Part shown: one piece after another, positions 5,549 to 44,978 of the stretch | How positions within the stretch are numbered: position 1 is the stretch's first letter | How the letters are laid out: each line of letters opens with the position of its first letter | Source of the DNA: Centruroides vittatus | Taxonomy: Eukaryota | Direction: 5' to 3' | Assembly (NCBI RefSeq): GCF_030686945.1 | Contig: NW_027122708.1 | Location: 5,674,248-5,738,247 of the forward strand | Length of the DNA stretch: 64,000 nt | The notes under the pieces: generated by a model | The model's database searches: none | Seen by the model: the letters and a program-made list of their open reading frames with translations, nothing else | Told to the model about the DNA's origin: nothing | Program-made: the position numbers and the translations under genes

Positions 5549-5765
5549 CTACGCCACTGGGTATACACGACCCCCATTATCTCCTCACCGCTCGACCTTT
5601 AACCACCAAAATTTAATAGCATCATTCCCCTTAAACAAAGCTCCCTGCAAAATTTCAGAAATTTTCGACAAAAAGCACAGGAGTTATTAAGCTTCAAAGA
5701 AGGTGAATAAAATCGTGCCCCACACAAATACATACCCTAACATTCATTTGAAAATTACTCCCGAT

Positions 5766-5797
5766 TTTTTTTTTTTTTTTTTTTTTTTTTTGCATTT
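5766..5797. repeat. Poly(T) tract of about 30 nt. It may be the poly(A) tail of a short minus-strand retroposed sequence at 5798-5905.
   Basis: Direct read. Confidence 0.8.
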
Positions 5798-5931
5798 CTC
5801 GACGTTTCAAGGTGTCCAAAAATGTAAAAATCTGGAGGGGGGGTTCATTTTTTTGCTGGATCGCCATACTTTTCCTCTGTTATAACAGCTGAGAAAGTAA
5901 AAGATTTTCTGATAGGTACAGTACCAAAGAT

Positions 5932-6615: not shown

Positions 6616-8631
6616 CCAAAGATTTTGAAGGCTCACAGCGCACATGGCCTCTCTTGGAATTTCTGAAGTTTCTCTTGAACAGGTTCTAGATCGATCTTAA
6701 GAAAAGCCACTTTATCTTTACAAACGAGTCTTAAAACTACGTTATAACTGCATATTCTCTCATTGCTCTTAAGCAATCTGAAGAACGTTTTCTGTTCTTT
6801 GACGGGCATTAGATTGCAACTGAACAAATTCTTTTCCATCGAAGGCAAAGGGATAATCTAGAAATGATTAAAAATTTGTCAAAAGACTATCGATTACTTT
6901 TGTTTTCTTTGGTGTATCTTTTGCACTGTTCCTTATTCTTTTTGAGGGATAATATCCACGTCGTAATGTAAATATAATTCTGGTCTGTTTTCATTTCGAA
7001 GAAGTTGCTTACGATCTTAATTATGCTCTTGCCAGTGTACCCTGAATCCTGGTCTCGGTGAAAAAATATTCTGGAAATTAATATTCTTCCACCTTGCGAT
7101 TACTTTATCACTAGAGTTTAATTAATTGTCTTATTTTGATTTAATTTACGTAAGTTCTATGAAAAATTTTATAAATTTTTGCTTATTTTTTCTTGCTAAA
7201 TGATTAAAATGTAAAACGGTAACAAACAATGAAACAAATTTTTATTATTGCATGTATAAATATATTGTGATTTTACATAATTAAATATAAAAATAAATTA
7301 TATTTAATAATGTTGCAATTTGACAAAATATTGCATAGCTTAATGTTTTACACTTTTTATGCCAGTTTTTTAAAGTACAAAAATTCTAAGATTTTTATAA
7401 CAATTAATAAGATTTAAGATTTTAAATAAGATTTTTATAACTTAATTATTCCATGTTAATAAATGCACCTTTCCATTTTTAGTACCACACATTATCAAGA
7501 TCTGTAACAGATTTTCTGTCGATTTTACTTGTTTTGTTGTTAGAACTTCAACTGGTAATTGAAGAAAGAATTGTCCAACCTAAAAGAATAAAAATTAAAT
7601 TTTATGTAAATTAATTTCAAATATGCTATATTAATCATAATATTTGAATCACATTAAGGATATAATGATAACATTAAGCTTACAATGACAGACTGAAAAT
7701 GTTTTGCAGTTAATGACAAAATTTTATTTGTTTACTGTTAATTTGTGAAACTTTAAATAAATAATAACTTTTTTTGTTTCATTCCAAATAAATAAAAATA
7801 TTATTTTTCAAAGACAGAATTCTAGTTAGTTTAAGCCAGTATGATCCAATTTAAAGATTGCTGATAGTACTACTGTATTGGAGCCACTGGAAGAAGGATA
7901 AAAGTAGTCTGACCCAAAAATGGAAAGCAGTTACCAAGATTATGACCATGGTTTCCTAGTTTCTTTAATAATGATTTTGCTTTCAATTCTTACTTAGAAA
8001 TTACAAAAGTTCAATAACTGTCTCTCTGGGTATGTTACCAGGAAGAGTGAAAGGAAAGATAACACTTTCCCCTATAGAAAAGTCTATTAGTTTGGTCTGA
8101 CAGTATTACTCAATGGGTGATTTGATATTAGGATTGAATTCATAATGTTGGTAACAAAAAGTGTTCCTTCCATGACCAGACCCATTCCTATGGCTTTGTA
8201 CTGTACATTATGATCATACAGATTTATTTGCTGTTCTAAAATCTCATACTGAGAATTTCAGGAAATGATTTTCAAAAGTTCTAAGGATTAAAACTTTACG
8301 AGGAAAGTTCTCATTTATCGAAAAAGAGTTCAACTGAACTTATACAATTGATACCGAAGAGAATCAAAAGCTTTGATCTACAAATGGAATTTTTTAAATA
8401 ATTTTTGAATAAACCTTTTTCTTCCTAGAAGTAAACAAACTTTTCAGAACTTTGAAGTTCATATTTAAAGAATAAATATGAAATTTCAGAGATTCTCTTT
8501 TTGAAATACTGTATTTCCATTTGAAAAAATTGTTTTCTGTCTGAACGTAAAGTTAATTTGATAGTCTGATGCATGACATAAGAATTATTATAATAAAATT
8601 TGGAAATCTATATATATAATCGAGACGAGTT

Positions 8632-9092
8632 GATAATAATAATAATCAGTGCAGAGCCCAAACGGTTAGGAGTTGAAAGTTGAAATTTGGTACACAGTTA
8701 GGGTACGTCATGAGAACGTACACTAAGAAGGGATTTTTCAAAATTCCTCCCACGAGGGAGAGGGACAAGATTAAGGCTTAACACTTCCATCAACAATGGA
8801 CGTGTCAGCAATGGAAGTGTTACGTAACAATGGAATTGTCAACAATGAAAGTGTTATGTAACAATGAACTTTTCAACAATGGAATTGTTAAGAGAAAGCG
8901 ACGTACAAGATGCAGATGCAGTTTTTTTCGTTTTTGCAGGAAATCAAACATATTTTTAGAACCATCAAAAATTCTCTAATTAGTCTGGAAACAAAGGGGG
9001 ACTCAATTCTTGCATTCTGTGAAAACAGGTAAGGTTATAATCTTAATCTTCGGTATCATTACTTTTGCCCGAGCAACGCCAGGCCCACCTGC
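8632..9092 (+). mobile_element. Helitron-like non-autonomous repeat, copy 1.
   Basis: It starts TCGAGACGAG after an A and ends CACCTGCTAG before a T, so it has 5' TC and 3' CTAG termini at an A|T junction. It contains a minisatellite of units of about 19 bp (CAATGGAAGTGTTAAGTAA). No clear 3' hairpin is present. Confidence 0.3.
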
Positions 9093-9117
9093 TAGTCTAT
9101 ATATATATATATATATA

Positions 9118-9531
9118 CACAGTAGAGAACCGAAAATCGGAATCAATTGGGGACTGGGGTTGTTCAGATTAGTGATTTGTTCCGATTACTGATTATGTAC
9201 GAAAAAAATACATTAACCTGTCCGATGTTCAAATTTTTCTCCGTTATGTGTCGCTTCGTGTTGAATTTTTCTCCGTTGTGTGTCGCTTCGTGTTGAATTT
9301 TCGTCAATTTTAAGCCTAACGAAAATTTTTATAATAATAATCGAGGCTATCGTATTGTTAAAAATTATTTCTGCATTTTGTACAAACAAAATAAATATAT
9401 TGAAGAATATAAAAACATGAAAATTATACTTTAGAAGTAAATTTAGTATCAAAAACGTTCAATTCAGCACGACACAGTCCGACTGAAAATCATTCCGATT
9501 ACCGGCGATTCCGATTAACAAGTCTCTACTG
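9118..9531. mobile_element. Tc1/mariner-type MITE inserted in a (TA)n microsatellite.
   Basis: Termini are ACAGTAGAGAACCGAAAATCGGAATC and GATTCCGATTAACAAGTCTCTACTGT (inverted), with TA flanks. There is no coding capacity. Confidence 0.55.
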
Positions 9532-9571
9532 TATATATGTATGTATATATATATTTATAAAATCGAGACGA

Positions 9572-10443
9572 GTTGATGATGATAATAATAATCATAATAA
9601 TAATAATCAGTGCAGAGCCGAAACGGTTAGGAGTTGAAAGTTGAAATTTGGTACACAGTTAGGGTATGTCATGAGAACGCACACTAAGAAGGGATTTTTC
9701 GAAATACCTCCTCATGGGGGAGAGGGACAAAATTAAGGCTTAACACTTCCATCAACAATGGAAGTGTCAAGTAACAATGGAAGTGTTAAGAGAAAGCAAC
9801 GTGCAAGACGCAGATGCAGTTTTTTTAGTTTTTGCGGGAAATTGAACATATTTTTAGACCCATCTAAAAATTCTGTAGTTAGTCTGGAAACAGGGATGAC
9901 CCAATTCTTGCATTCTGCGAAAATGGGTAAGGTTGACTGTAACGTAATAATCTTCATTTTCGCTAAAACAGTTAGGAGTTGAAAGTTGAAATTTGGGACA
10001 CAGTTTGGGTACCAAATTTAAGTACCAAAGTGTTAAGTAACAATGATAGTGTTAAGTAACAATAGAAGTGTCAACAATGGAAGTGTTAAGTAACAATTGA
10101 GAACAAGAGAAAGCGACGTGCAAGATTTACGGGCTCTGGAAAAAAAAGAAAAAAGAAAAAGAGTAATATGTTAGAACATATTCGATTTTCAAATTTAAAC
10201 AGATTAGTTCGGTTTTTCTCAACTTTTCTTCTTTAGAACATTCACTGAAAATCGAATGATATAATCAGAACACATCGTGAAAATTGAACAATATTAGAAC
10301 ATTCAATTTTCAAATTCGACCTTTCTTTAGAAATACTTAGTTTGTTGATGAAATTATTAAGTTATAGTCACAAAAGAAAAAGAGTAATCTTAATTATCAC
10401 TATCGTTACTTTTGCCCGAGCAACGCCAGGCCTACCTGCTAGT
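9572..10443 (+). mobile_element. Helitron-like non-autonomous repeat, copy 2 (rearranged, with a partial internal re-duplication).
   Basis: Same 5' end, A|TCGAGACGAGTTGATGAT. The same body and minisatellite recur at 9962-10135. The same 3' end, ...CCTGCTAG|T, lies at about 10443. Confidence 0.3.
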
Positions 10444-23456: not shown

Positions 23457-23806
23457 AAACAACCAAACACCTTAAGTTGCTGAGAAAAATTTAATAAATA
23501 ACAAACGTTTTCAGCCAAATCTGTTGGCCATCATCAGGTTAAACAAATTCGAATGCAAACACAAAATGGAACAAAAAATTTAAATACAAATAAATAAAAT
23601 AACGGATAAAATATACATATAAGAAAGTAAAAATTAAATATAAATAACAAAAATACTGTATATAAAAAATATGTATAGGTTAAATAATAAACTACACGAA
23701 ACTCTAATAAATGCAAGAAGTGCATTTATCAATAAATTATACGAAATTCTGACAAATACAAGATATGCAGTGATAACAAAACCAAGGCATTAAATTAAGA
23801 GCGGAT
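23454..23806. repeat. Left arm of the 353-bp inverted repeat flanking the GIY-YIG ORF.
   Basis: Reverse complement of 24359-24711. The two 63-aa pseudo-ORFs at 23534-23725(-) and 24440-24631(+) are identical, which confirms near-100% identity over at least 192 bp of the arms. Confidence 0.9.
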
Positions 23807-24370
23807 ATGATAACCACACTAATCAAAAACTACAGGAATAACAAAACAAAAGCTCAAGGAGGGGATTTCCGCAAATTCACAAAGTTCACGTATGACAGAA
23901 AGAAAGAAGCTATCATGAAGGAAATCTCAGCCCGCAAAAATACCAAGTTAATTTTCAAGAGGGCTCCCAACTTGTACAAATTATTAAGGAACGACAAAGA
24001 CCGTATTGATAAAGAAAGAATGGCTGGAGTGTACAAAATTCCTTATGAAAACCAAGAACTAGGCATTAATAAAAACTACATTGGAGTTACTAATAGAAGC
24101 TTAGGGATTAGATTGAGGGAGCACAAATACAACATCAGCAAAAGATCTAACGCCACAATTCTATCTCAGATGGCACAGGTTGAAGGCTCGGTAGTCAAAT
24201 GGGGTGAAGCAGACATCATTAAATCTGTACACTCACCGACTTTAGCGTTTTGCGCCGAAAAAATTGAAATATTTAAGAGCAGATTACATAATGCCTGCAT
24301 TAATGCCAGGGATGCTGAAGGGTTGCCTTCGGCATGGAAATATTTAATTAAGAGGTTTGATAGCTCTTAA
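23807..24370 (+). CDS. GIY-YIG endonuclease domain of the Penelope-like-element type (187 aa). The start codon is probably fortuitous.
   Basis: The catalytic motif is GVYKIPYENQELGINKNYIGVTNRSLGIRLREH (GIY..YIG..R..EH). The upstream linker reads LIFKRAPNLYKLLRND. The C-terminal region reads ATILSQMAQ...IIKSVHS...AEKIEIFK...INARDAEGLPSAWKYL. Together these match the conserved layout of PLE endonuclease domains. The CxxC linker finger is absent. Confidence 0.8.
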   Translation: MITTLIKNYRNNKTKAQGGDFRKFTKFTYDRKKEAIMKEISARKNTKLIFKRAPNLYKLLRNDKDRIDKERMAGVYKIPYENQELGINKNYIGVTNRSLGIRLREHKYNISKRSNATILSQMAQVEGSVVKWGEADIIKSVHSPTLAFCAEKIEIFKSRLHNACINARDAEGLPSAWKYLIKRFDSS

Positions 24371-24711
24371 TTTAATGCCTTGGTTTTGTTATCACTGCAT
24401 ATCTTGTATTTGTCAGAATTTCGTATAATTTATTGATAAATGCACTTCTTGCATTTATTAGAGTTTCGTGTAGTTTATTATTTAACCTATACATATTTTT
24501 TATATACAGTATTTTTGTTATTTATATTTAATTTTTACTTTCTTATATGTATATTTTATCCGTTATTTTATTTATTTGTATTTAAATTTTTTGTTCCATT
24601 TTGTGTTTGCATTCGAATTTGTTTAACCTGATGATGGCCAACAGATTTGGCTGAAAACGTTTGTTATTTATTAAATTTTTCTCAGCAACTTAAGGTGTTT
24701 GGTTGTTTGTG
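24359..24711. repeat. Right arm of the 353-bp inverted repeat flanking the GIY-YIG ORF.
   Basis: Reverse complement of 23454-23806. Its terminal ~20 bp overlap the last codons and stop of the truncated LINE ORF. Confidence 0.9.
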
Positions 24712-24725
24712 ATATTGTGAGTGTT
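24712..24725. repeat. Putative 14-bp target-site duplication (right copy), ATATTGTGAGTGTT.
   Basis: Pairs with 23412-23425. Confidence 0.6.
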
Positions 24726-25557
24726 TGGAATGGCTATGTCTATAATGTATGTGATTTTATTGTGTTTGTCAATGAGTGTGATGTCTGGTCTGTTGTGGTA
24801 AATTGTTTTATCTGTGATTATGGCTCTGTCATAGTACATTTTGTGCGTGTTGTTTTCCAATACTGTCTGCAGAATGTATTTGTAGTATGATTCGTGGATG
24901 TCTACTAATTTGTGTTTCTTTGCAAGCTCTTGGTGTATTATATTTGCTACTTGGTTATGTCTGTGTAAATAATCTGTCTGTGCCAAGAGCTTGCAACCAG
25001 AGGTGATGTGTTGTATAGTTTCTGACATAATGTGACATTTTCTGCATGTGTCATTTGTGAGTGTTGCATCTTTGAGTATGTGTTTTCTGTAGTTTTTAGT
25101 ATTTATGATCTGATCCTGTATGGCAATCATGAATCCTTCCGTCTCCCCAAAGAGGCATCCCCGAGCTAACCAGCTGTTTGACGCAGTTTTGTCAACAAAT
25201 ATCCTGGGCCAGATCATAAGGATGCCTGCCATGGAGTGCCTTTCGAGCCCACGATTGCTTAATGGTGTCTATGCTTTTTATATGTTGTGTTGTGTCCATA
25301 TGATGTGAGTGTAAGTTTAATGGTGTGTTATTCGAGTCTGCTAGAGTTACTGCTTTATGTAATTGTGATATTTCTTGTTTTTCATAAAAAAACTCTCGCA
25401 GTGACTGTATTTGTTTGTAATGAAGGTTAACTATGTCAATCAGGCCACGTCCGCCATCTTTACGTGGAAGGATTAATCTTTCTGTGGCAGATTTAGGATG
25501 ATGATGTTTATGCTTAGTAAGTGTTGTTCTTGTTTTCCTTTGGAGTTGCTCAAGATC
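24712..25557 (-). CDS. LINE ORF continuation: thumb, CCHC zinc-finger motif and the N-terminal half of the PD-(D/E)xK restriction-like endonuclease.
   Basis: The frame resumes directly after the 25558-26352 insertion (IHWTHTDLEQLQRKTR..LILPRKDGGRGLI). The listed 180-aa ORF 24690-25232 contains CRKCHIMSETIQHITSGCKLL..YLHRHNQVANII and RPDITLIDKHNKITYIIDIAIPNTHNI, then runs 7 codons into the inserted inverted repeat and stops. Confidence 0.7.
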
Positions 25558-26352
25558 TGTGTGAGTCCAATGTATTGTGGCCGTCGGCCATGATATTGTA
25601 TATTTTGTATATTTTATATTGAATTAGTCTTAGATTTTCTTTGTTCCTTTGTCTAACTCTTTCTAGAACTTTCTTTGTCTAACTCTTTCTAGAACTTTCT
25701 TTTGTCTAACTCTTCCTAGAACTCTCTTTGTCTAACTCTTTGCCCTTGGGGGAGGATTATCTTTCCCTCAATAGTAAGAACAAAAGAGGGAGTGAGGCCC
25801 TGAAGCAAAACAGACAGAAAGAGTGCGAGTCTGGGTTGGAATCCCGAAGAGGTAGGAGCTGAAAAGGAGTGCTCCAGAAAGGGAGAAGGGTGATCTAAGA
25901 GGATAAAGTGCAGAGAGAGATCATCGAGGAAAGACGACTCAGTCTGAAAGAAAAAGATTATAGACGAAAGATCTATAAGGAAAAGGGCTACAAACGTAAC
26001 AAAAGAGAGAGATCCGAAGTTGTTCCCCACCAAAAGACACATCGCAAAGAAACCCGGGTATTTCTACTACTTTTCTTATCTTTCCTTATTTCTTCTATTC
26101 TTTCAATTTCTTTTAGTTTTAAGTTAGTATAAGTTAGTGTAAGTGAATACGGTCCTCGTCAGATTGTCGCGTGTGTGCAAGATAACTGTTTTTTGAGGAC
26201 AAATATTTAATGCCTATATATATATTAAATTCTGGAAGTTGTAAAGTTGGGATCCTATGTAAAGAACCTGTTCAGAGAGAATAAAACTACTTTGTATTAA
26301 GTTTTATTTTGTACCATTTCGCTCGCGGGATCGTGTACCTCTTGTTACGAAC
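25558..26352. mobile_element. Solo-LTR-like repeat, copy 1, nested inside the LINE ORF between the RT and thumb domains.
   Basis: Starts TGTGGCCGTCGGCCATG and ends ..CGCTCGCGGGATCGTGTACC..GTTACGAACACCA. It carries TGTG..CACA-type termini, and GTAT on both flanks is a possible 4-bp TSD. It shares about 60-70% identity with two further copies at 49532 and 57971. The LINE frame is continuous across it (ILWC|IHWTH). Confidence 0.45.
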
Positions 26353-28966
26353 ACCATAGTATAACTCCAAAAGAATATGTGAGTACTGGGATGACATATG
26401 TGTTTATTGCTTTAACTGTGTGTTTTGCATTTAACTGTGTTCTGAGAATAGCATTTAACCTACTTTGGTATTCTTTAATTAATCTTTGCTTTATTTGTGT
26501 ATGTTCTGTTAGTTTGGCCTGTTGGAATCCTAAATACTTGTAGAACTCGCCCTCTTCCATGGATTCAATAATGTCTCCATTTCCAAGCGCAAAATCTTCT
26601 TTCTTCAGGATTCCTTTTTCTATGTGAACTGTTTTGCATTTATCTAGGCCAAATTCCATTTGTATGTCCTTGGTGTATGAATGTGTGATTTGTAGGAGTC
26701 GATGAAGTTGTTTTTGTGTGGATGCATAAAGTTTTATGTCATCCATGTACATGAGATGTGACAGTGTATACTGTGTTGTTTTTTCGTGTCTGATATTGTA
26801 GCCATATTGTGTGTTGTTTAACATGTTGGATAATGGATTCAAGGCTAGGCAGAACCAGAGAGGACTCAAGGAATCTCCTTGAAAAATTCCTCGCCTAATA
26901 AAGATTTGGTTTGTTTGTATGGAAGTGTTATGAACCCTGAGATGTAGTGTTGTTCTCCAGTGCTGCATGGTGTTTTCGAAGAATGTAACGAGTGATGGAT
27001 GTATTTTGTACATGTGTAGAATATGTAGCAGCCAACTGTGTGGAACACTGTCGAATGCTTTTCTGTAGTCTATATATGCCATGTGTATGTTTCTGTGTTG
27101 TTTGTGTGCTTGCCGTAGAATGACTGAATCTATGAGTAACTGTTCTTTGCATCCCCTGTGGTTTCTACGGCCACCTTTTTGTTGTTCCGTTAGAATGTCG
27201 TGTTCTTCAACATGTTTGTATATTTTGTTTGCAATACAGGATGTCAATAATTTGTAGAGTGTTGGAAGACATGTAATTGGTCTGTATTGTGTGGGGTCTG
27301 TGGTATTGTTGTTTTTAGGTTTCATGTAGGTGATGCCTTGAGTAAGAAAATTTGGCATGTCTTGTGGATTGATGATGATGTGTGTTAGGTGTTTAGCTAG
27401 TTCCTGGTGCAGTGATGTAAACTTTTTGTACCAGAAATTGTGAATGTTGTCTACACCAGGTGTCTTCCAGTTGTGTGTTCTGTTAACAGTGTATTGGAAA
27501 TCACGTATGCTTATTTCAACACAGGGCATAGTTGGTATGTTGTGCAAGTTTTTGTTCTCCTCCTCGATCCAGCCTGCTTCAGCATTGTGCGTGACAGCAC
27601 TGGACCAAAGAGAAGACCAATATGTTGTGAGTTCTTCTTCTGTTGGTGTGCCACTGTGCTGTGTATCAGTGTTTGCTTTGTTATTAATTTGTCTGTAAAA
27701 GAGTTTTTCATTGTTTGTAAATAATTTATTTTGTTGTTTTCGTAGTGTACATGTTTTGTATCGTTTGAGTCTACGTGCTTTGGCAGCAAGTTGTTGTTTT
27801 AGTGTATCAATGTATTCTGTAATGCGTGTGTTGTGACGTTCATGTTTTGTGTGTGTTTTTATTTTCTTGAAAATGTTTTTGAGCTGTTTCCTTAATTTGG
27901 GTGTTATGTTGTTTTTAGTGTATTGTGTCAGCCTGCCTAATTGCTGTCTAATGTCATTTATTTGTGTTTCTATTCTTCTCTGCCAGGCAGGCTTGTGATA
28001 GAATTGTATTTTCTGTGTATTTGTCTGTGATTGTACTTTCAGTCCATGGTGTGTCACTACTGTGACTGCCCCAGCATAAACTAATGTATGAATGTCTGCG
28101 AGTGTAGAAATTGAATGAATGTAGTGTGGTAGTAAGTGAGTGTTTACATAATTTAGTGTTTTTCCTATTTCCTTTGACGTGTTGATTTTTGGTATTCGTG
28201 GTCTTTGTGTGGGATCTGTGCCTGTATATTTAGTGAGTGTTTCCTGAAATATAAGTGAGAGCGTATTAACTAAATCCATGTCTATGTTATCAGTGATGGA
28301 TGAGGAAGTGTCTGTAGTATCATTAGTGCTAATTGTTGTATGTGTGTTATTATCAATGTTTGTTACTGGATTATCCTGACAGGTTACATGATCTTCATTA
28401 ATGTTAGATGTTTCTGTCTGTTGATGTATTTGATCAGCAACCTGTTGTTTGATAAGTTCAAGTGTTGTTTGTGGAATAAGGTTGTTGTGTATAATTGTTC
28501 TTTTTTGATCAACAACCCTTTGTTCGGTGACAGTGAGATGAGGATATTGTTGTGTGAATCTATGGTATAGTTGTTGTCTGTATGCTGTCATGTTTGTTTC
28601 GAGTTTTGTGATGGTGTAGTAAGTACGGATGATAAACTCGTTCATTTCTATCGTCCATTTCATCCGTTGGCGTGGTTTTCCAGCCTTTGTGGTCTGTGGA
28701 TGCATTGCCACAGAAACACCAAGGCTGGGTTGGTTCCTCACATCTGTTGAGGGCATTGCAGTAGCCATGCTTGGGCCGGTGCTGCTTTCGCCACCGGTAA
28801 CCAAGGGAGACTGTGGCCTATTTTTCGAACGTGAGCCTCTGCCTAACCCACGAACGCGGACCTTGTTAACCCGGGCGACGTCCGAGCCGGTATCACATTT
28901 GGATCTGGTTACTACCATGATACGTATCTCCACAGAATGTGGGTGTGTGGTCACTCTTAGCTTCAT
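26345..28966 (-). CDS. LINE ORF: N-terminal region plus reverse-transcriptase domain. The stop codon at this point belongs to the nested LTR-like insertion.
   Basis: 873-aa ORF carrying RT motifs (KAFDSVPHSWLLHIL, FQGDSLSPLWFCLALNPLS, YMDDIKLY). No AP-endonuclease domain is present. A 5' UTR of about 130 bp precedes the ATG. Confidence 0.85.
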   Translation of the reverse strand: MKLRVTTHPHSVEIRIMVVTRSKCDTGSDVARVNKVRVRGLGRGSRSKNRPQSPLVTGGESSTGPSMATAMPSTDVRNQPSLGVSVAMHPQTTKAGKPRQRMKWTIEMNEFIIRTYYTITKLETNMTAYRQQLYHRFTQQYPHLTVTEQRVVDQKRTIIHNNLIPQTTLELIKQQVADQIHQQTETSNINEDHVTCQDNPVTNIDNNTHTTISTNDTTDTSSSITDNIDMDLVNTLSLIFQETLTKYTGTDPTQRPRIPKINTSKEIGKTLNYVNTHLLPHYIHSISTLADIHTLVYAGAVTVVTHHGLKVQSQTNTQKIQFYHKPAWQRRIETQINDIRQQLGRLTQYTKNNITPKLRKQLKNIFKKIKTHTKHERHNTRITEYIDTLKQQLAAKARRLKRYKTCTLRKQQNKLFTNNEKLFYRQINNKANTDTQHSGTPTEEELTTYWSSLWSSAVTHNAEAGWIEEENKNLHNIPTMPCVEISIRDFQYTVNRTHNWKTPGVDNIHNFWYKKFTSLHQELAKHLTHIIINPQDMPNFLTQGITYMKPKNNNTTDPTQYRPITCLPTLYKLLTSCIANKIYKHVEEHDILTEQQKGGRRNHRGCKEQLLIDSVILRQAHKQHRNIHMAYIDYRKAFDSVPHSWLLHILHMYKIHPSLVTFFENTMQHWRTTLHLRVHNTSIQTNQIFIRRGIFQGDSLSPLWFCLALNPLSNMLNNTQYGYNIRHEKTTQYTLSHLMYMDDIKLYASTQKQLHRLLQITHSYTKDIQMEFGLDKCKTVHIEKGILKKEDFALGNGDIIESMEEGEFYKYLGFQQAKLTEHTQIKQRLIKEYQSRLNAILRTQLNAKHTVKAINTYVIPVLTYSFGVILWCS

Positions 28967-32759: not shown

Positions 32760-33180
32760 TAAGTAAATAGATATGCTGAATGTCAGCAAATGCATGAGGC
32801 AATATTAATTCTGAAAAACACATTGCCACATTAGAGAAGGGTCTTTTTCTAATATTCTCCAGTGGGCATATGGACAAAGCATCCACTGTGTTCATGGATG
32901 TGGGAGCTCCTTGTCACACAGGCAAAAAGATCCAGAATTGGCTGGCAATACAAGGTATCTGCAAGCTTCCATGGGGCAGTCAGTCACCTGACATGAATCC
33001 CATCAAACATGTCCGGAATCTGCTGGATCATGCAGTGTGATGACATCCACAAAAACCTGCTTCCTACAGAGAACTTTTAGATAGATTGTGTGCTTAATGG
33101 GCTAATATTCCACAGGCCAAAACAGCAGAACTTGTTGATTCCATGTCCAATTGGATTAAGGCTTTGCAGTTTTAATACAC
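32760..33180 (+). mobile_element. Tc1-like transposase fragment (C-terminal part, with stops).
   Basis: FMDVGAPCHTGKKIQNWLAIQGICKLPWGSQSPDMNPIKHVRNLLDHAV...RELLDRLCA.WANIPQAKTAELVDSMSNWIKAL (compare QQDNAPxHTSK...WPxQSPDLNPIExxW). Confidence 0.55.
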
Positions 33181-36616: not shown

Positions 36617-36914
36617 CTTCTTTTTCGGTATTATAAATTAGAGGATTCCGCTCGTCACTCAAATTAAATGACCAAATGATTAGTTTACCAGTAATATCAC
36701 AACTAAATCCAATTTGTTTATTTGGCAAAAATCCAATTCCTGTAATTTTTCCTTTATGATAGCTGCATAGCTGAGAGTCTGTTTCATCAGTGCTGGGTAA
36801 TTTCCAAAATCTTACACTTTTATCTGATGAACATGAAATAAGAGTATCTTTTGGTGTAGCACATGAAGATGTTACAGGACCTGTATGACATTCCAATGTT
36901 GCCACTAATGGTTT
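36617..36914 (-). CDS. WD40-repeat protein gene, internal exon (about 298 bp).
   Basis: aaatttag|AAACCATTAGTG... to ...GAAAAAGAA|gtaagtaacg. It encodes KPLVATLECHTGPVTSSCATPKDTLISCSSDKSVRFWKLPSTDETDSQLCSYHKGKITGIGFLPNKQIGFSCDITGKLIIWSFNLSDERNPLIYNTEKE. The listed ORF 36603-36905 overlaps it. Confidence 0.7.
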
Positions 36915-37785
36915 CTAAATTTATATAAAAATATCTTTTAGAACAAATAAAACTTAACTATAAACAATATATTAATTTCTAGCAAGCAAATGTTCTAATA
37001 AGCGTAGCCTCTTGATTTCAAATCCTTTTCTAATATATAAATTCTTAAAGAATTTTGTTTTTAAAAATTTTAAGCATTCATTAATTCATTACCATATAGT
37101 AAACAAAGCCTGAATGATACATTAATAATCAACTGAGAAAGTCAGATTCATTACTAATTAGCCACTACATACAAATTTAAATGACTACTGTATTAAAATT
37201 TAATACAAAATTTAAATTTAGGAAAGTTTAAATTACAAGGAAGAAAGAAAAACATTTTCTGTCATAGAAAAAAAATACAAAGAAAAGAAATCTGTATTTC
37301 TTTTGTTACAAAAAGATTTTTATATGCTATATAAAGATCTTGTCAACAAAAAATGTTTGTTTCAATTAATAAAAGGCTGTCATTTCTAAATAGCACAACA
37401 AATATATTACTTGTAAAAATAAATTATTATTATATTTTAATTACAAATTATTAAGTTGATATTAATTTATAAAAATCAGAATAGTTTATTTTACAGGACA
37501 AAACTTTGAATTCTTATGCTAAACCAAATACAATAGCATCAAATATTGTATTTTCTACTAGTAAAACATAGGGATATAAGATACATCCACAATTTAGCAA
37601 AAATTAGTTTTAAAAAATTTTATTGTAATTTGGGTATATAACCTGAGAAAATTGCTAAATAACCTTTGCATAACCTATTCCACCACATACTCATGCCTAT
37701 GTTGCTCCACAGACACAAATTTGTAATTGCAATTTAAAATCAGCAATAACCAGCACCTCCTTTCAAATTGGCTTTTAAACAGAGA

Positions 37786-39779
37786 GGTTAATGTAACCCT
37801 TGGTGCCAAGATGGCGGCGCTTCCGGTAATCTCCAATCCGGGTGTCATGAGGTAATAGTGATAGAGGGAGCTATCATGTAATTTACTGATGTAATACGTA
37901 ATGATGTTTAACATGACGTAAAAAAATAATGTGAAAGATTATGCAAATTTGTAAAATATGATGTGGTAGACAGTAGTTTTTTGCAGAAATATGCAAATTA
38001 ACTGGTAGGTAGATGATACTGACAGTGTTGCGTTGTATCTATAGCGGAATTTTTGATTTTTATTTTTTCAATAGTTTTTTCAAAAAAGTTAAAAAGGTAA
38101 ATATATTGTTCTTAAACAATAGTATTTGTGAATTTGATATAAACAAACAACTAAAAATGTTGTTAATTTTTCAATTTTTTTATTTTTTTTTTTGATAATT
38201 TTGTGACTAGTAGTTATGCAGAAATTAGATCTGGTGAATTTTTGTTAGGTCAAACTCTTCGTAAATTCTAATAGATAGATGAAAATGAATATTTGAAATT
38301 AGTGTGGGACAATGATATTAATAATGGCTTTAAATTTGCTTTAAAATTAGGACTACACGAACTTATGCCAGGTGCAACTCGTGTGCTAAAACATGTAAAT
38401 TATACTATAGAAGCAACTTAAAATCATGTTTTCTAAGATTTGTAAAGTGGTAATAAGTATTCAGCATACGAAGGAAACATTCAAAAGCATATTTGGCAAT
38501 GTCCATTTTGGTCATATTTTGTCTTTCGGTTCGCCCTCAAATTGTTTGAAATGTACGGCAAAATGGAATTACAGCATTCTCACTGTCCGAAGCATATATC
38601 TGATTGAATAAGTGTAAAGAAAACCTGGAGACAGTCCAATTTTTCGCAAAACAATTCGTTGCGATGTGTCCAGGGACTGGGAAAACTGCAAAATGGTTTG
38701 ATCTACAATATGTTCTGTCTGCACTACTTCTGAACTTTAATAAGAAGCAAATACTGAAAATAGAGAAGGAATAGGAAAAGGCAACAGCAAATGTGAATAA
38801 AAAGGCAGCCAAACACTCCTCTAAGGTTGCAGCAGAAACATCATCATTAGGGAAGAAAGGACCTGCAAAAAAGGAAATTGGAATCTACCAAGCTAGGGAA
38901 AAAAGTAGGATTGAATATAAAAAACGAATCATTAACGTGAGTATGTTTTTTTTTTTTATCATCAATATTTTATCTTATATTATTATATTTTCGGAAACAC
39001 ATGATCTCTGATCAAAATACCGCTAAACGCGCTGTAAAGGTCGCCTTTGGCGGCCTGAGTCAAAGAAATCGCCCGACTGAGATAATTGCTCCCACCTGGA
39101 GCCGGGGTCATAAACGGCCGGAAGGATCAAAGGTGGAGCGTCCCCACTTAAGGGTCAATGTGTTGGCCACGTGCCGGCCAGCTTGAGAAAACAAAAATAA
39201 ATAAAGCACGGACGCAAATGTGAGCTACGTCGGCGGGAGATAGGGCGGACGTCTTGGAAGGCTCTAAGAAAGGGGAAGGAAGTGATTGGTCGCAGGAGGC
39301 AGTGCCAGAATCCCTTAAATTGGAAGGGTGGCAAAAAAGCGAGGAGAAAGGGCGAGGGACCTGGTACGTGGCGGTCTCTAACAACAGGCAGACCTTTGAG
39401 GCGGATAGAGAGAGTGTTCTCCTCTTGGAAAGTCCTCTGGAGAAAGGTTGTTGTAGAGACGGACGGCCACGAGGTTAAGCCATCTCCGGAAGAGTGACTC
39501 GTGTTCCCAGGCCAGCTAAGTCGACGTGCTGCATCACAGCTTCGATACTGTAGTGTACGTAATGCTATTGCATAGTGTATATCTTTGTAAATATTTGTAA
39601 ATAAACTGTATATAACTAATCATTGAGTGTGGAGGTGTGACTTTCCGACGGACCTTCTAACGGAACATTTGTAAAGATCACGAGACGAGTAAGAAGGATC
39701 TTCACTCGCGCAGTCTCCAGGCCAATCCAAGATGGTGACCGGAAGCGTCGCCATCTTGACACCAAGGGTTACATTAACC
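37786..39779. mobile_element. hAT-like TIR element (about 2 kb) carrying GC-rich cargo.
   Basis: TIRs of about 45 bp read GGTTAATGTAACCCTTGGTGCCAAGATGGCGGCGCTTCCGG, with an inverted partner ending ..CCAAGGGTTACATTAACC at 39779. An 8-bp direct repeat AACAGAGA lies at 37778-37785 and 39780-39787. The interior at 39000-39520 is GC-rich, unlike the surroundings. Confidence 0.6.
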
Positions 39780-41143
39780 AACAGAGATAACATATGAATA
39801 CTGTAATCTGCACAAAAATAGTATTTGCATATATTTACAAATATTGACTAATATATTATTATCTATGCTATCATATGGCTTGCAATTAAACTGTCCTAAA
39901 ATTTTATTTATATTTCTAAATTTTAATGATGAAAGCAGATCTATACAGTATTATTATAAATAATTTTGTCTAAGTGCAATGCAAAAAAAATCAGAAGTGT
40001 TACAATATGCTGCTAAACAAGAAAAATTTTAAAGTCTATTAAATACAGACACACATTGCATGTTCAAATTTCATTTTCAGCATATGAAAAATTAGAAATA
40101 TCTTAACATACTCTGTTGTTATGAAATAACTTACTTAACATAAATATATTATAAACTTTTAATATTTTCAATGACTATTTTATGATATTGACTTATTCTA
40201 TTCATAAACATGATATACAGGGTCTACCAAAATAAATGCTACCATTTTAAATTACTGTAATTATGTTAATTGTTACATGAGAAGTATGCAATGTACAGTA
40301 CATTGATAGACAGTAACAGCCTGAGTTTTATCTTCCACCTATATTCAAAAGTCTTGTCATCTACTATCTCTAGGAAGTACCATATATAAAAATGACAACT
40401 TGCAACAGAGAAGGCATTTTGTCTTGCAGTTTGCAAAGTCAGAATCAATCGTCATTGTGCAACATGAATAATCTGTAGCAGCTGTAGAATTGTGGCTGCT
40501 GTGGGAGTGACTAAGGGTATGCTGGAGTGAGAATAAGAATTTGAGTATCAGTTGGATGTGTACCATGTGACATGAAGTGCATGCATGCATTGAGAAATTG
40601 TAATGGACAAATGTGAAATCTGGCCAGTTTTCCAATGTTTTAATGTACATTACAACATTCTCAGGTAATAATTAACTTAATTACAATAATTTAAAATGAT
40701 AGAATTCAAAATTATAAAATGTAAAAACATTACATACCAAGTAATGTTACTGATTACTATTTAGTAGCATTCTGTTCTCTGTGAATGATAATATTGCCTG
40801 AAGAGGACAGTTATATACTGCCGAAAGTACTTGGATAAATACACTTTTCCATAATGCCGATAGACAGTTGTGTTGTAAATTTTATGATAGCATTCTTTTT
40901 GGAAGAATCAAAAACTTACTATCATCAAATCATGAGTTATAAAATTAGATAAAACCATCTTTATTCAGTTTTGTAACTCATAATTATATTTCTCGAAATG
41001 TCAGAAAAATATGGTATTATACAATCGTCTAAATAATAAGTCAACCTCTGGATTTATTTTTACTTTTAATACAAGGTAATTGCAATGGATAAAATTATGC
41101 AGATATAAGAATGTAAAATACTTACATTAAAAGGTTTCCTTAC

Positions 41144-41199
41144 AGTTAATATATCATTCTCATCAACAGAAGCCAAATATTGTTGATAAACTTTTCCAT
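41144..41199 (-). CDS. WD40-repeat protein gene, small internal exon.
   Basis: tttttttttatcaag|ATGGAAAAG... to ...ATATTAACT|gtaaggaa. With the phase-1 carry-over from the previous exon it reads (D)GKVYQQYLASVDENDILT, so the phase is consistent with exon 43047-43179. Confidence 0.45.
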
Positions 41200-41792
41200 C
41201 TTGATAAAAAAAAATTTAATTTAATTTATATTTCAAAAGTAAAAGTATTTAAAAACATTTATAATCATGTTTATCATTAAAATATTCTCAATTATCAAGC
41301 TTAATATGCAATAAAAACAATTTAATCTTTCTGAAAAAATATTTTGTGAATTTAATATAATTATCTAGAAAATAATTTTAATATTTTAATAAATGTGAAT
41401 ATAAAATATATGAAATTGTATATTACTTAGAATAAATATAAAGTTAAATAATATAAAATAATTTTCAAATATGCAAATGTTTTAGAAGAATCCTGGAAAA
41501 ATTTATTTTATTAACAACAAATTTAATAATATAAAAGATTTTGTTGAGTCTTTTTATGTCAAATATTTCTGAATTACTTTGCTCTGTCTTCAGATATACA
41601 GTACATTCAAAACTTGTGTCACTACAGCACAGAACTTTTTTCAAATTTAAAATTATATTTATAGAAATGTTTTGTGTGTTTTAAATCAATAAAAACATTC
41701 TTAAAAAAATTAAATTTTTAGTATTTTTAAGTTTTAATACTTACATATCCAAAAATTTCTTAAATTTACAAACAAAATTAAAATAATATAAA

Positions 41793-42150
41793 GGTACTTG
41801 TATGTTCTTTGGAACTTAGCATAAAGTTGCTATTGAGAACAAACCATACAGAAACACTCCTTTTGATGGAAAAAGTAGATTATTTCCCATGATTTACAAT
41901 GGATATGCATTTCAGGCTTGGGTTTTAGGGTTTTGTGAGTTAGCATATGTTAAATGTAAATTATTAAACACATTATGAATTTCTTATATAGTTTTACTGA
42001 TTTACATAATAAAATAATGACTGAAGAGGGGCATAGAGCCTGAAATGCATGTCTGTTGTAAATCATAGAAAATAAATCTACTTTTTCCATTAAAAGAAGT
42101 GTTCCTGTACGATTTGTTCTCAATAGCAACTTTATGCTAAGTTTCAAAGA
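41793..42150. repeat. Foldback element: arms of about 110 bp at roughly 90% identity, with a loop of about 120 bp.
   Basis: 41793-41913 (GTATGTTCTTTGGAACTTAGCATAAAGTTGCTATTGAGAAC...) against the reverse complement of 42037-42160. Confidence 0.5.
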
Positions 42151-42160
42151 ACATACAACT

Positions 42161-42216
42161 AATTGAGAAAACAGTAAGCAATCAAATAATGGTACTTGTA
42201 CCATTATTTGATTGCT
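42161..42216. repeat. Perfect 54-bp palindrome.
   Basis: AACAGTAAGCAATCAAATAATGGTAC ttgtacc ATTATTTGATTGCTTACTGTT. It lies directly 3' of the foldback above and shares GGTACTTGTA with that foldback's flank at 41784. Confidence 0.8.
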
Positions 42217-43046
42217 TACTGTTCTCCAGGCTAACTCCATGTTATTGACAGAATAAAATGATGGCAATCTTCTCTTTCAGCTTTTGTTGAAACCTATTCT
42301 GGCACACCTCCTTAGAACTAAAAAAGCTTTCTTTAAAGAATCTGGAGCAATTACATGTATTAATTGTGCTTCTATGAATGTGTATGTTTTATACTTTCCT
42401 TCAGCATGTTAATGTGTTAAATAAATATTACTACATTCAGTTTACTAGTTGTTTTCTTGAAAGTTACTGTGTCAACTCTGCTCTACTCATTTTTCAGATT
42501 AAAAAATTTTAATTAATGATAAAAAAACAAAAGCAATTTAATGAACTTTATATTACAGATCTTTCTATCGTAATTACAATTTTATTTCACTCTATTTTAC
42601 TTGTTTTCTGTTTGTTTATCGTCTTTTCATTAAATTGCATTACTGCATTGAAATGCAGTAATGCAATTTGCAAAGCAGAATATGAATGAAATAAAGAAAC
42701 TGCAGACTAGAATGTATGAGCCATCTAATCAGAGGTGCAAGAATTTCAATCTCAATGCATTCATGATTAGGATATGTCTTCTCACAAATATCAATTGGTG
42801 CTTATTGTACTCAGTATTTTGTCTCATAAATTGAAAAGGGAAAGCCAATTTATTATAAATTGAAAAGGGAAAGACAAAGAAAATACAGAATATAATAATT
42901 TGATACAATGGACTACGTATTTGAGTACTTGTAAATTGGGGTCACACTATTTGAACAATGCATTAGTTTGTACAATATCATTTTTTATGTTAATATGAAT
43001 CAATCTATCAAATAAATAAATTTAAAAATTTCTACTAATATATTAC

Positions 43047-43179
43047 CTTTATTCAAAATATAAGCTGGTTCCACATTTAAATTACAGTCAGTCAATGCAG
43101 AAATTGAAGTAACATTATCACCATATTTTGTCCAAATTCCAATACTTCCATCTACTGTTCCAGCAATTACATAGTTATC
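43047..43179 (-). CDS. WD40-repeat protein gene, internal exon.
   Basis: tttattttttag|GATAACTATG... to ...TTGAATAAAG|gtaatata. It encodes DNYVIAGTVDGSIGIWTKYGDNVTSISALTDCNLNVEPAYILNK and ends in phase 1. Confidence 0.6.
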
Positions 43180-43324
43180 CTAAAAAATAAATTTAAAAAT
43201 TTTATGCCATCTTAGCTTGTTATATGAAATTTAAAATTAGCAAATTTATTAAAAATAACTTTGGATGTGCATAAATGTAATATTCTGGCTGCTTATATAT
43301 ATATATATAAACATAAAATATATT

Positions 43325-43403
43325 GTGATCATGTCAAATTTGACCCTCTGGGACTTTTGCAAACTCAAGATTTTGAGACCCCATGAAAAAGGAGAGAAAA
43401 AGT

Positions 43404-43470
<67 letters not shown>

Positions 43471-43690
43471 CTGTGTCTATTTTGTTTAATATCTCAGGAT
43501 GGGGAATGAGGTAAAGATTAGGAAATGAAATTTGGCATGGTAATTTGTATATAAGGAGCATTGATGCTATAAAATTTTGGTGGTTAAAGGTTGAATGGGT
43601 CATGTGTCATATCTTCAGTGGGGTTGGACTTAAAAATTTTACTTGTTACTGGCATTTACAATTTTTTAAAAACTCATCTCTATCATCAAA
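43325..43690. repeat. Unclassified interspersed repeat, copy B, carrying an internal (CT)10(GT)24 expansion.
   Basis: Same family as 14025-14360. The microsatellite at 43398-43470 replaces a unique segment of about 30 bp in copy A. Confidence 0.6.
43398..43470. repeat. Compound microsatellite (CT)n(GT)n.
   Basis: ctctctctctctctctctctgtgtgtgtgtgtgtgtgtgtgtgtgtgtgtgtgtgtgtgtgtgtgt. Confidence 0.95.
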
Positions 43691-44519
43691 ATTTATGTTA
43701 GCTACAAACTAATTCAAAAATTGAGTAATTTAGTAAACTAGAAGAATTTCAAATCAATTCTGATTGCAATTTGAAATCATGAAAAAAGATTATTTTACAA
43801 ACCAAGAAATATTTTGAAAGCTGGAATACTTTGAAAACTATAAACTTTTTCAAAGTTATTCAAAAAAGTTTATAGGTTTTTGGTATCATAAGCTTAATTT
43901 CAACAATAAGACAGAAGTTTAATAACATTGATATGTGTAACAATAAATGATGATTGACAACTTAACCAGATTATACTTCTCTAACAGATAAAGAATATTG
44001 TTTGACTTATAACCTGCCCTCCTTCCCTATTCCTATTGTGATGTTTGTTGCGACAAGTACGTGGTCCTGCGAGTGGAATGGTACAAATAAATACTTGTTA
44101 GACTTTCCAACACAAAGTAATTTATTATCACCTTGAACAGGTTCTTTTTCTTTTAGATCCCAACTCTACAAATGCTTTCTGTACACACAGCCGTTAAATA
44201 TTGATCTAACAAACAACAGGTTATTTGAGAGTGACAATTATATGTGGGCCGAAACTTATAACTAATACTTATACTACTTATTAATGCCAAATTCATTTCT
44301 GATTTATAATCATTATATCCAAATTTAGCCCGTTCATTTATGGCAGTTGTGAGAGTATATCTGCTTAATAATGGGTTTTCAATTGATGTGTATATTTGTA
44401 TATCTATACCTTGCCGGGGTTGCAATGGCCGACTGAGTGCCTTGAGTGGATGTTTCTGGCCAAAGGTGCAGTGAGTCTCCAGTAGGCACCGTAATAACCA
44501 TTAATGGTTATATCTTAAA

Positions 44520-44640
44520 TTTATATATACTGGAAGAGGCTGAACTGAAGGTCTGGGTAGCGTAACTGGCAATGCTACCCAGACTACACGGTAAGCGGGA
44601 GTTGCAGGTTCGAGCTCGTTTCAGGCCGATTCTTTTCTTC
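44520..44640 (+). repeat. tRNA-derived (pol III A-box and B-box-like) SINE-like fragment inside a 350-bp insert.
   Basis: TAGCGTAACTGG is A-box-like and GGTTCGAGCTC is B-box-like. No clean cloverleaf forms, so this is not called as a tRNA gene. Confidence 0.3.
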
Positions 44641-44870
44641 CAGTTTAGTCTTAATTAATTAAATATTATAATTATTAATTTTAATACAAGATGGCACCTA
44701 ATGCCACACACTAATGCTAAATTCATTTTTAATTTATAATCATTATATCCAAATTTAACCCATTCATTTATGGCAATTGTGGGAGTATATTTGGTTATGT
44801 GTTTGTTGAAAAAAGCAAATTATACAAATTATTGATATATAATTTAATCATCAATAAAATTATAACTAAC

Positions 44871-44978
44871 CTCTAAAGTCACATATTTAACTGGAGCATG
44901 TAAACCAGTAAGCGTACTGACATTTTCCATCATTTCAATATTCCATAATTTTACTGTGCAGTCTTGAGAGCAAGTAGC
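44871..44978 (-). CDS. WD40-repeat protein gene, internal exon.
   Basis: atatttctag|GCTACTTGC... to ...ACTTTAGAG|gttagtta. It encodes ATCSQDCTVKLWNIEMMENVSTLTGLHAPVKYVTLE, a classic WD pattern (D.TVKLWN...TL.GH...V). Confidence 0.65.

What the first reader, a model, noticed from the sequence alone, without database searches (positions are those of the whole stretch)
37778..39787. A 2-kb hAT-like element (8-bp TSD AACAGAGA, 45-bp TIRs) carrying unusually GC-rich cargo and a candidate captured exon with a GT donor
The TIRs are GGTTAATGTAACCCTTGGTGCCAAGATGGCGGCGCTTCCGG. The interior at 39000-39520 is far more GC-rich than its surroundings. It shows overlapping ORFs in three frames, the pattern expected of non-coding or structured GC-rich DNA.

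At 38793-38940 an ORF (..KKAAKHSSKVAAETSSLGKKGPAKKEIGIYQAREKSRIEYKKRIIN) ends exactly at a strong donor-like GTGAGT.

The cargo may be a transduplicated host gene fragment or an embedded ncRNA gene.
Basis: partly seen in the sequence, partly recalled or inferred. Interest (0 to 1): 0.55.

Follow-up and report, generated by a model that had tools for sequence, protein, structure and literature searches.

The report
Young non-autonomous DNA transposon in intron
This is a real but ordinary 2-kb "cut-and-paste" transposon without its own transposase gene, recently inserted into an intron of a WD40-repeat gene. Its ends fit the Merlin superfamily better than hAT, and nothing shows that its GC-rich interior is a captured exon or an RNA gene.

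Summary
The structure is real. A perfect 8-bp target-site duplication (AACAGAGA) flanks a 1,994-bp element with 42-bp terminal inverted repeats (40/42 complementary). It is the only inverted-repeat pair in the 64-kb window with a flanking duplication of 5 bp or more. The interior block at 39000-39500 is 53% G+C, the richest 500 bp in the window.

The element encodes nothing recognisable, so it is non-autonomous:
- no Pfam domain in six frames;
- no hit for its open frames among 5.8 billion proteins;
- no hit for the longest frame among 1.84 billion representatives;
- no Rfam or tRNA match, and no excess RNA folding.

The "exon" is an A-rich open frame with no ATG and no pyrimidine tract before its candidate acceptor. 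It runs 24 codons past the GTGAGT.

The termini (5'-GG, 42-bp repeats, 8-bp duplication) match published Merlin hallmarks better than hAT, but no sister or autonomous copy could be found, so the superfamily stays open.

New here: the element lies in a 7.96-kb intron of a minus-strand WD40 gene. Its CpG content is undepleted (o/e 0.93) within a strongly CpG-depleted domain (mean 0.33), which points to a recent insertion. It is an ordinary finding.

The parts
37778..37785 (.). Left target-site duplication AACAGAGA
   Evidence: Identical to 39780-39787; neighbouring bases differ, so it is exactly 8 bp
37786..37827 (+). Left terminal inverted repeat, 42 nt, starting 5'-GG: GGTTAATGTAACCCTTGGTGCCAAGATGGCGGCGCTTCCGGT
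   Evidence: Pair I1, 95% complementary. The pattern is unique to the two ends.
37833..37837 (+). CCAAT motif just inside the left repeat. The same motif on the same strand sits inside the right end at 39722-39726.
   Evidence: Read from the sequence. Its function was not tested.
37900..38400 (.). AT-rich interior (G+C about 0.25) with poly-T and short low-complexity repeats
38775..38936 (+). The frame continues to a stop at 39009-39011.
   Evidence: No ATG, no pyrimidine tract upstream. No homologue. P=0.038 against shuffles.
38990..39530 (.). GC-rich, purine-skewed, non-coding block (G+C 0.53, CpG o/e 0.91), split by the A-rich run AAAACAAAAATAAATAAA at about 39188-39205
   Evidence: No protein, Pfam or Rfam match and no folding signal.
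39158..39619 (-). Longest stop-free frame of the element (154 codons). It is judged not to be coding.
   Evidence: 0 hits among 1.84 billion protein representatives. P=0.033 against shuffles.
39728..39758 (.). Right-end palindrome CAAGATGGTGAC-CGGAAGCG-TCGCCATCTTG: a third, oppositely oriented copy of the CAAGATGG motif of the inverted repeat
   Evidence: k-mer count and the sequence
39738..39779 (-). Right terminal inverted repeat, 42 nt
39780..39787 (.). Right target-site duplication AACAGAGA
36915..44870 (-). Host intron (7,956 bp) that contains the element. It lies between WD40 exons 44871-44978 and 36618-36914, which have AG/GT boundaries and join in frame.
   Evidence: The joined exons score WD40 at 6.2e-13, against 6.5e-10 for one exon alone.

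Best explanation
The region 37786-39779 is one copy of a non-autonomous class II (cut-and-paste) DNA transposon.

How it most likely works (inferred): a transposase encoded elsewhere in the genome binds the 42-bp terminal inverted repeats, probably including the repeated CAAGATGG motif. It excises the element and inserts it at a target cut with an 8-bp stagger. Repair of that stagger produced the AACAGAGA duplication.

What is shown: this copy landed in a 7.96-kb intron of a WD40-repeat gene transcribed from the minus strand. It carries no recognisable gene or RNA. The insertion looks recent. Its CpG dinucleotides are undecayed, while the surrounding gene body and even an intact retrotransposon ORF nearby are strongly CpG-depleted with TpG/CpA excess.

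Superfamily: from the termini, Merlin is the most likely (about 45%), then hAT (about 25%), then others with 8-bp duplications such as P, some MULEs, Zisupton and Novosib.

The GC-rich block is most simply non-coding family backbone, or filler DNA acquired during gap repair, that has not yet drifted to the host's AT-rich, CpG-poor composition.
For: Transposon structure:
- Perfect 8-bp duplication and 40/42 inverted repeats.
- The terminal patterns are unique, with 0 expected by chance.
- It is the only inverted-repeat pair in the window with a duplication of 5 bp or more.

Non-autonomous and non-coding:
- Six-frame Pfam scan empty apart from one sub-threshold match at E=0.085, and ORF Pfam scan without a significant match.
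- All stop-free frames of 38 aa or more from 38200-39780 found no hit at E<=0.01 among 5.8 billion proteins.
- The 154-aa frame found 0 hits among 1.84 billion representatives.
- Rfam, tRNA and folding tests were negative.

Intronic position: exons 44871-44978 and 36618-36914 on the minus strand have canonical splice sites, join in frame, and give a better WD40 score joined than the one exon scored alone.

Youth:
- Element CpG o/e is 0.93, against a mean of 0.33 and maximum of 0.82 in 481 same-size windows of 10-64 kb.
- Element TpG/CpA o/e is 1.10/1.01, against 1.25-1.32/1.20-1.22 in the flanks and 1.46/1.41 in the intact RT ORF.

Merlin fit: TIRs of 24-462 bp, a conserved 5'-GG and 8-9-bp TSDs, with many non-autonomous families in arthropods and other animals (PMC8101967).
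Against: - No second copy and no autonomous partner was found in the window or in any reachable collection. Repetitiveness, mobility in trans and the superfamily therefore all rest on the structure of a single copy.
- 5'-GG plus an 8-bp duplication is a weak classifier; some MULEs and other families also start with G-rich termini.
- The two longest open frames are slightly longer than in shuffles (P about 0.03-0.04), so degraded coding sequence is not excluded.
- High CpG could reflect protection from methylation rather than youth. The two repeat arms differ at 2 of 42 positions, which is more than a brand-new insertion with identical ends would show.
- The 53% G+C block has no positive explanation.
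Confidence: 0.75

Rival explanations
1. One reading: a hAT-family non-autonomous element that has transduplicated a host gene fragment, namely an exon with its GT donor at 38793-38942 and perhaps more in the GC block.
For: - An 8-bp duplication is the hAT hallmark.
- There is a 78-codon stop-free frame followed in frame by GTGAGT.
- An AG at 38773-38774 is in phase, and an AG at 39038-39039 would allow an in-frame continuation to a stop at 39184. This comes from my own reading.
- The frame is slightly longer than in shuffles (P=0.038).
Against: - The termini are GGTTA and 42 bp, whereas hAT repeats are 10-25 bp and usually start YARNG (my own knowledge).
- The duplicated site AACAGAGA fits neither the nTnnnnAn nor the nnnTAnnn hAT target consensus (my own knowledge; a single site is weak evidence).
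- There is no protein or Pfam match for this frame or for the hypothetical spliced product.
- The frame has no ATG, and the sequence upstream of the AG is purine-rich. The real host acceptor at 36915 is T-rich.
- The frame is explained by A-rich composition.
- It lies antisense to the host gene.
Confidence: 0.08
2. The GC-rich block is functional cargo: a mobile CpG-island-like promoter, a small gene or an unknown ncRNA. On this view it stays unmethylated inside a methylated gene body, which is why its CpGs persist.
For: - CpG o/e is 0.91 in the block and 0.93 over the whole element, inside a domain averaging 0.33.
- It is the richest G+C window of the 64 kb.
- The inverted repeats and subterminal regions contain motifs resembling YY1 (AAGATGGCGGC), ETS (CTTCCGG) and CCAAT sites. 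That resemblance is my own recollection and was not tested.
- AATAAA lies at 39600-39605, downstream of the block on the plus strand.
Against: - There is no Rfam match at E<=1, no tRNA, and folding no better than shuffles on either strand.
- There is no protein homologue.
- The AT-rich parts of the element are also little depleted (o/e 0.83 and 0.62, from few sites), which suits youth of the whole element better than a local protected island.
- AAGATGGCGGC-like matches are not clearly enriched in the window: 10 against 4.6 expected, and 1 of 100 shuffles reached 10.
Confidence: 0.07
3. It is a non-autonomous element of another superfamily that makes 8-bp duplications (P, 8-bp MULE, Zisupton, Novosib) or of an undescribed group. 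Its interior would be a degraded remnant of that element's own sequence.
For: - Several superfamilies share 8-bp duplications (classification list in PMC4455052; duplication lengths from my own knowledge).
- The terminal sequence was not found in any paper text searched.
- At 2 kb the element is within the range of short autonomous elements.
Against: - There is no trace of any transposase domain in six frames.
- P termini (CATG...) and the usual 9-11-bp MULE duplications fit less well than Merlin (my own knowledge).
Confidence: 0.2
4. It is not a mobile element: the inverted repeat and flanking direct repeat arose by chance or by a local rearrangement.
For: Only one copy was seen.
Against: - A 42-nt arm with 40 matches has 0 expected occurrences in shuffles.
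- An exact 8-bp direct repeat abutting both arms has a chance of about 1 in 65,000 at fixed positions.
- It is the only such structure in 64 kb.
- The composition and CpG break sit at the element: the bin that holds it has CpG o/e 0.90, its neighbours 0.35 and 0.16.
Confidence: 0.01

Closest known systems
Non-autonomous Merlin elements (e.g. the Repbase Merlin-N families of ants, Rhodnius, Parhyale and zebrafish; the superfamily is related to bacterial IS1016/IS1595)
   Same: 8-bp target-site duplication, inverted repeats starting 5'-GG, a repeat length (42 bp) inside the published 24-462-bp range, and no coding capacity, as in the many listed non-autonomous families.
   Different: No DDE_Tnp_IS1595 transposase or autonomous partner with matching termini was found. 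The terminal sequence could not be compared with Repbase or Dfam. No subterminal tandem repeats, which are common in listed Merlin entries, were seen.
Non-autonomous hAT elements and hAT MITEs (e.g. Ds, Mar, BuT2-derived MITEs)
   Same: 8-bp duplication, an AT-rich non-coding interior, and location in or near genes.
   Different: Repeats of 42 bp rather than 10-25 bp. The termini read GGTTA rather than the usual YARNG. The target does not match hAT consensus sites. No hAT-type domain remnant is present.
Gene-fragment-capturing transposons (Pack-MULEs and other transduplicating DNA elements)
   Same: Inverted repeats enclosing sequence of composition foreign to the flanks.
   Different: No homology of the interior to any protein or to the rest of the window. 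No convincing exon-intron structure.

Membership tests
Merlin superfamily | 8- or 9-bp target-site duplication | tested here: met
   Exact 8-bp AACAGAGA on both sides; criterion from PMC8101967
Merlin superfamily | Terminal inverted repeats begin with 5'-GG | tested here: met
   Both ends read GGTTAATG...; criterion
Merlin superfamily | Inverted repeats of 24-462 bp | tested here: met
   42 nt, 40/42 complementary
Merlin superfamily | DDE_Tnp_IS1595 transposase in the element, or in an autonomous partner sharing the termini | not testable with these tools
   This copy has no such domain in six frames. No partner copy could be retrieved, because the host genome, Repbase and Dfam are not available.
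hAT superfamily | 8-bp target-site duplication | tested here: met
   criterion from PMC3942097
hAT superfamily | Short inverted repeats (10-25 bp), termini usually YARNG | tested here: not met
   42-nt repeats starting GGTTA. The length criterion is; the terminal motif is from my own knowledge.
hAT superfamily | hAT transposase (BED finger, DDE, hAT dimerisation domain) or a remnant of it | tested here: not met
   No Pfam hit in six frames at E<=1 apart from one unrelated sub-threshold match, FlgA_HD-like at E=0.085. Absence is expected for a non-autonomous copy, so this is weak evidence.
hAT superfamily | Target consensus nTnnnnAn (Ac group) or nnnTAnnn (Buster group) | tested here: not met
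   AACAGAGA fits neither. A single site is only weak evidence. The consensus is from my own knowledge (Arensburger et al. 2011).
Transduplicating (gene-capturing) DNA transposon | Internal segment homologous to a host gene located elsewhere | tested here: inconclusive
   No protein homologue for any frame and no match elsewhere in the window. However, the host's own proteins appear to be absent from the database: a bona fide WD40 exon also found nothing. Short exons would in any case be hard to detect.
Structured ncRNA gene | Match to an RNA family, or a fold more stable than shuffled sequence | tested here: not met
   Rfam at E<=1 gave 0 matches and at gathering score 0 in the whole window. 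Folding z-scores were -0.79 and -1.32. No tRNA was found.

The most novel reading that the evidence does not exclude
The element is a mobile, methylation-resistant CpG island. On this reading its inverted repeats (YY1-, ETS- and CCAAT-like motifs) and its 0.5-kb GC-rich block act as a promoter-type module that stays unmethylated after inserting into a heavily methylated gene body. A transposon family could then seed new unmethylated islands or antisense promoters inside host genes.
Probability: 0.06. Interest if true: 0.6.

Novelty: new member of a known kind. Interest (0 to 1): 0.2.

Why it matters
Mostly this is an annotation matter. It is a clean, probably recent DNA-transposon insertion that would serve as a good seed for defining a family, probably Merlin-type, in a genome whose proteins seem poorly represented in public protein data.

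The one feature of wider use is the CpG contrast. Undecayed CpGs sit inside a strongly depleted, presumably germline-methylated gene body. That gives a simple internal clock for insertion age in this genome. If the contrast reflects protection rather than youth, it would be an example of a transposon carrying an unmethylated island.

Tried and rejected
Searches for sister copies, all empty:
- blastn and tblastx of the element against the rest of the window gave only low-complexity matches.
- The reconstructed empty site gave only one weak 70% match, 37635-37739 against 51153-51278.
- Two different 20-22-nt patterns from the inverted repeat found nothing in viral, metagenome or bacterial/archaeal contigs.
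- blastn against the phage and plasmid collections found nothing.
- Text searches of papers for terminal-repeat strings found nothing.

Searches for coding content, all negative:
- Pfam on 10 ORFs and on all six frames gave only sub-threshold matches.
- A concatenate of 25 stop-free frames against 5.8 billion proteins gave nothing.
- A hypothetical 3-exon product gave no Pfam hit.

Attempts to identify the host failed:
- The WD40 exon had no database hit.
- The RT ORF's best named relatives are lepidopteran at only 41-46% identity, and an anonymous Logan contig from SRR5919269 is 52% identical.
- Exact-product look-ups of two window ORFs were not on record.
- The strong CpG depletion argues against Lepidoptera (my own knowledge), so the host remains unknown.

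Alternative readings rejected:
- A TTAA-type reading (piggyBac or Kolobok) of GG|TTAA|TGTAACCC was rejected because the 8 bases outside the GG/CC are a direct repeat, not an inverted one.
- A nested insertion inside the element was not supported: no internal inverted-repeat pair with a flanking duplication was found.

Not retrievable: Feschotte's 2004 Merlin paper is not held, and a table of terminal motifs could not be found in the curation guide.
Full report
**1. What is there**

- Reading 37600-39950 shows AACAGAGA at 37778-37785 and again at 39780-39787. The bases next to each copy differ, so the direct repeat is exactly 8 bp.
- Directly inside it lie inverted termini at 37786-37827 and 39738-39779: 42 nt with 40 complementary positions. 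The two mismatches are transitions, neither at a CpG.
- Terminal patterns of 31, 20 and 18 nt, allowing up to 3 mismatches, occur only at these two places in the 64 kb, with essentially none expected in dinucleotide shuffles.
- My own scan for inverted-repeat pairs within 8 kb with flanking direct repeats returned this as the only pair with a duplication of 5 bp or more.
- The element is therefore 1,994 bp, with 42-bp rather than 45-bp inverted repeats and an 8-bp target-site duplication.

**2. Composition**

- G+C is 0.525-0.545 across 39000-39500, against 0.2-0.3 outside.
- Window 39001-39500 is the richest 500-bp window in the 64 kb (0.532; window mean 0.317, sd 0.067).
- The block is purine-skewed on the plus strand and is interrupted by an A-rich run at about 39188-39205.

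**3. Is anything encoded?**

- Ten ORFs and complete six-frame translations gave no significant Pfam match; the best were E=0.011-0.12, far below the curated cut-offs.
- A concatenate of all 25 stop-free frames of 38 aa or more from 38200-39780 found no protein at E<=0.01 among 5.8 billion sequences.
- The longest frame (154 aa, 39158-39619, minus strand) found nothing among 1.84 billion representatives scanned without a word filter.
- Rfam at E<=1 over 37000-40500, and at gathering score over the whole window, found nothing. ARAGORN found no tRNA.
- The GC block folds no better than its shuffles on either strand (z=-0.79 and -1.32).
- The longest open frames are only marginally longer than in composition-matched shuffles (P=0.033-0.038).
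- There is no similarity to phage or plasmid DNA.
- The interior is therefore best called non-coding, and the element non-autonomous.

**4. The 'captured exon'**

- The frame begins at a GTG and has no in-frame ATG.
- It does not end at GTGAGT (38937-38942). It continues 24 codons through a T-rich tract to 39009-39011.
- It sits in the most A-rich, T-poor stretch of the element (AT skew 0.37), where stop codons are scarce.
- An in-phase AG exists at 38773-38774, but the sequence before it is purine-rich. The genuine host acceptor at 36915 follows a T-rich tract.
- GTRAGT occurs about 0.9 times per kb in this window, counting both strands.
- A contrived three-exon product (ATG in the inverted repeat, this frame, then 39040-39183) has no Pfam match.
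- I regard the exon as a compositional artefact, though expression data were not available.

**5. Which superfamily?**

- An 8-bp duplication is compatible with hAT, Merlin, P and a few others.
- Published descriptions give hAT inverted repeats of 10-25 bp (PMC3942097).
- They give Merlin repeats of 24-462 bp with a conserved terminal 5'-GG and 8- or 9-bp duplications (PMC8101967). Many non-autonomous Merlin families are listed for ants, Rhodnius, crustaceans, Hydra, fish and others.
- This element starts GGTTAATG and has 42-bp repeats, so all three visible Merlin hallmarks are met, while two hAT hallmarks are not.
- Repbase classifies non-autonomous elements by duplication length plus agreement of terminal positions 1-11 (PMC4455052). 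That comparison cannot be made here.
- I therefore prefer Merlin (about 45%) over hAT (about 25%) and others, without claiming membership.
- A TTAA-type reading of GG/TTAA/TG is excluded, because the eight bases outside the GG/CC are direct repeats, not inverted ones.

**6. Context found along the way**

- On the minus strand, an exon at 44871-44978 (acceptor ...tttctag, donor GAG|gttagt) and an exon at 36618-36914 (acceptor ...aatttag, donor GAA|gtaagt) join in frame.
- Joined, they give a better WD40 match (6.2e-13) than the downstream exon scored alone (6.5e-10).
- The element thus lies in a 7,956-bp intron of a WD40-repeat gene.
- The window shows a sharp CpG landscape. CpG o/e is about 0.95-1.3 over 1-10 kb, but 0.04-0.57 in all but one 2-kb bin over 10-64 kb (54001-56000 reaches 0.74), with TpG/CpA excess. 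That is the signature of long-term germline methylation.
- The bin holding the element is a further exception to the depletion (0.90).
- Over its exact coordinates the element has o/e 0.93, above all 481 same-size windows of the depleted domain (mean 0.33, max 0.82). Its TpG/CpA ratios are near 1.
- An intact 873-aa reverse-transcriptase ORF nearby has o/e 0.49 and TpG/CpA of 1.46/1.41.
- Even the AT-rich parts of the element are little depleted (0.83 and 0.62, from few sites).
- The simplest reading is that the whole element arrived recently. The alternative, protection from methylation, cannot be excluded from one copy.

**7. What could not be done**

- No sister copy was found in the window.
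- Exact-pattern scans found none in viral, metagenomic or prokaryotic contigs. Paper texts held none either.
- The host could not be identified. Its WD40 exon has no database relative.
- The retrotransposon's best named relatives are lepidopteran at only 41-46% identity.

**8. Verdict**

- This is a genuine, structurally intact, probably young non-autonomous DNA transposon in an intron.
- 'hAT-like' is not the best label; the termini are Merlin-like.
- The captured-exon and ncRNA ideas have no support.
- The GC-rich block is real but has no positive explanation. It is most economically backbone or filler DNA that has not yet drifted to the host's composition.
- The finding is ordinary, with one mildly interesting side observation: the CpG contrast.

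Noticed in passing
window 1-10000 versus 10001-64000: There is a sharp two-state CpG landscape. CpG o/e is about 0.95-1.3 in the first 10 kb. It is 0.04-0.57 in the rest apart from two 2-kb bins (38001-40000 at 0.90, holding the element; 54001-56000 at 0.74), with TpG/CpA excess. This looks like mosaic germline methylation of a gene body, and is unusual for Lepidoptera, the group holding the closest named RT relatives.
   Followed up: partly
window 44871-44978 (-) and 36618-36914 (-): Two exons of a WD40-repeat gene with canonical splice sites join in frame. The downstream exon has no relative sharing 5-residue words among 5.8 billion proteins, so the host lineage or this gene is poorly sampled.
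   Followed up: partly
window 26345-28966 (-), with related pieces at 24690-25623 (-): An intact 873-aa non-LTR reverse-transcriptase ORF (RVT_1, 5.7e-31). Its best relatives are anonymous Logan contigs (52% identity) and lepidopteran proteins (41-46%). It is CpG-depleted (o/e 0.49) despite being intact.
   Followed up: partly
window 55545-55876: A compact foldback MITE. The repeat finder reports 135-nt inverted arms at 55532-55666 and 55755-55889, 96% complementary and 88 nt apart. The element proper starts at CAGGGTGGGCCAGCG and is flanked by TA on both sides, which is Tc1/mariner-like. It lies in the second least CpG-depleted part of the depleted domain.
   Followed up: partly
window 39576-39603 and 39822-39854: A 10-bp repeat (TGTAAATATT, 2.8 copies) inside the element is the inverse complement of a repeat (TATTTACAAA, 3.3 copies) in the host flank 228 nt away, with 22/25 complementary positions. 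It may be AT-rich chance, or it may hint at local template use during repair.
   Followed up: no
window 39728-39758: The right end carries an extra, oppositely oriented copy of the CAAGATGG motif of the inverted repeat. This forms a 12-8-12 palindrome with the repeat itself. The left end lacks it.
   Followed up: no
window 6001-6750: A GC-rich (0.45-0.49), CpG-rich (o/e 1.35-1.6) patch that looks like a CpG island. The flanking sequence includes a motif shared between 5415-5687 (+) and 43337-43606 (-) (translated STFNHQNLIAS / STFNHQNFIAS), which suggests a dispersed repeat.
   Followed up: no
window 32798-33037 (+): A short Tc1/mariner-type DDE_3 transposase remnant, matched weakly (E=0.018).
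   Followed up: no
window 23777-24367 (+) and 53914-54204 (+): Open frames with GIY-YIG-like motifs (...GVYKIPYENQELGINKNYIGVTNRSLGIRLREHK... and ...GVIYRLQCTCEILNYVGETKRKLKVRMSKH...) reminiscent of Penelope-like elements. Pfam gave no hit for the first, and the second was not tested.
   Followed up: no
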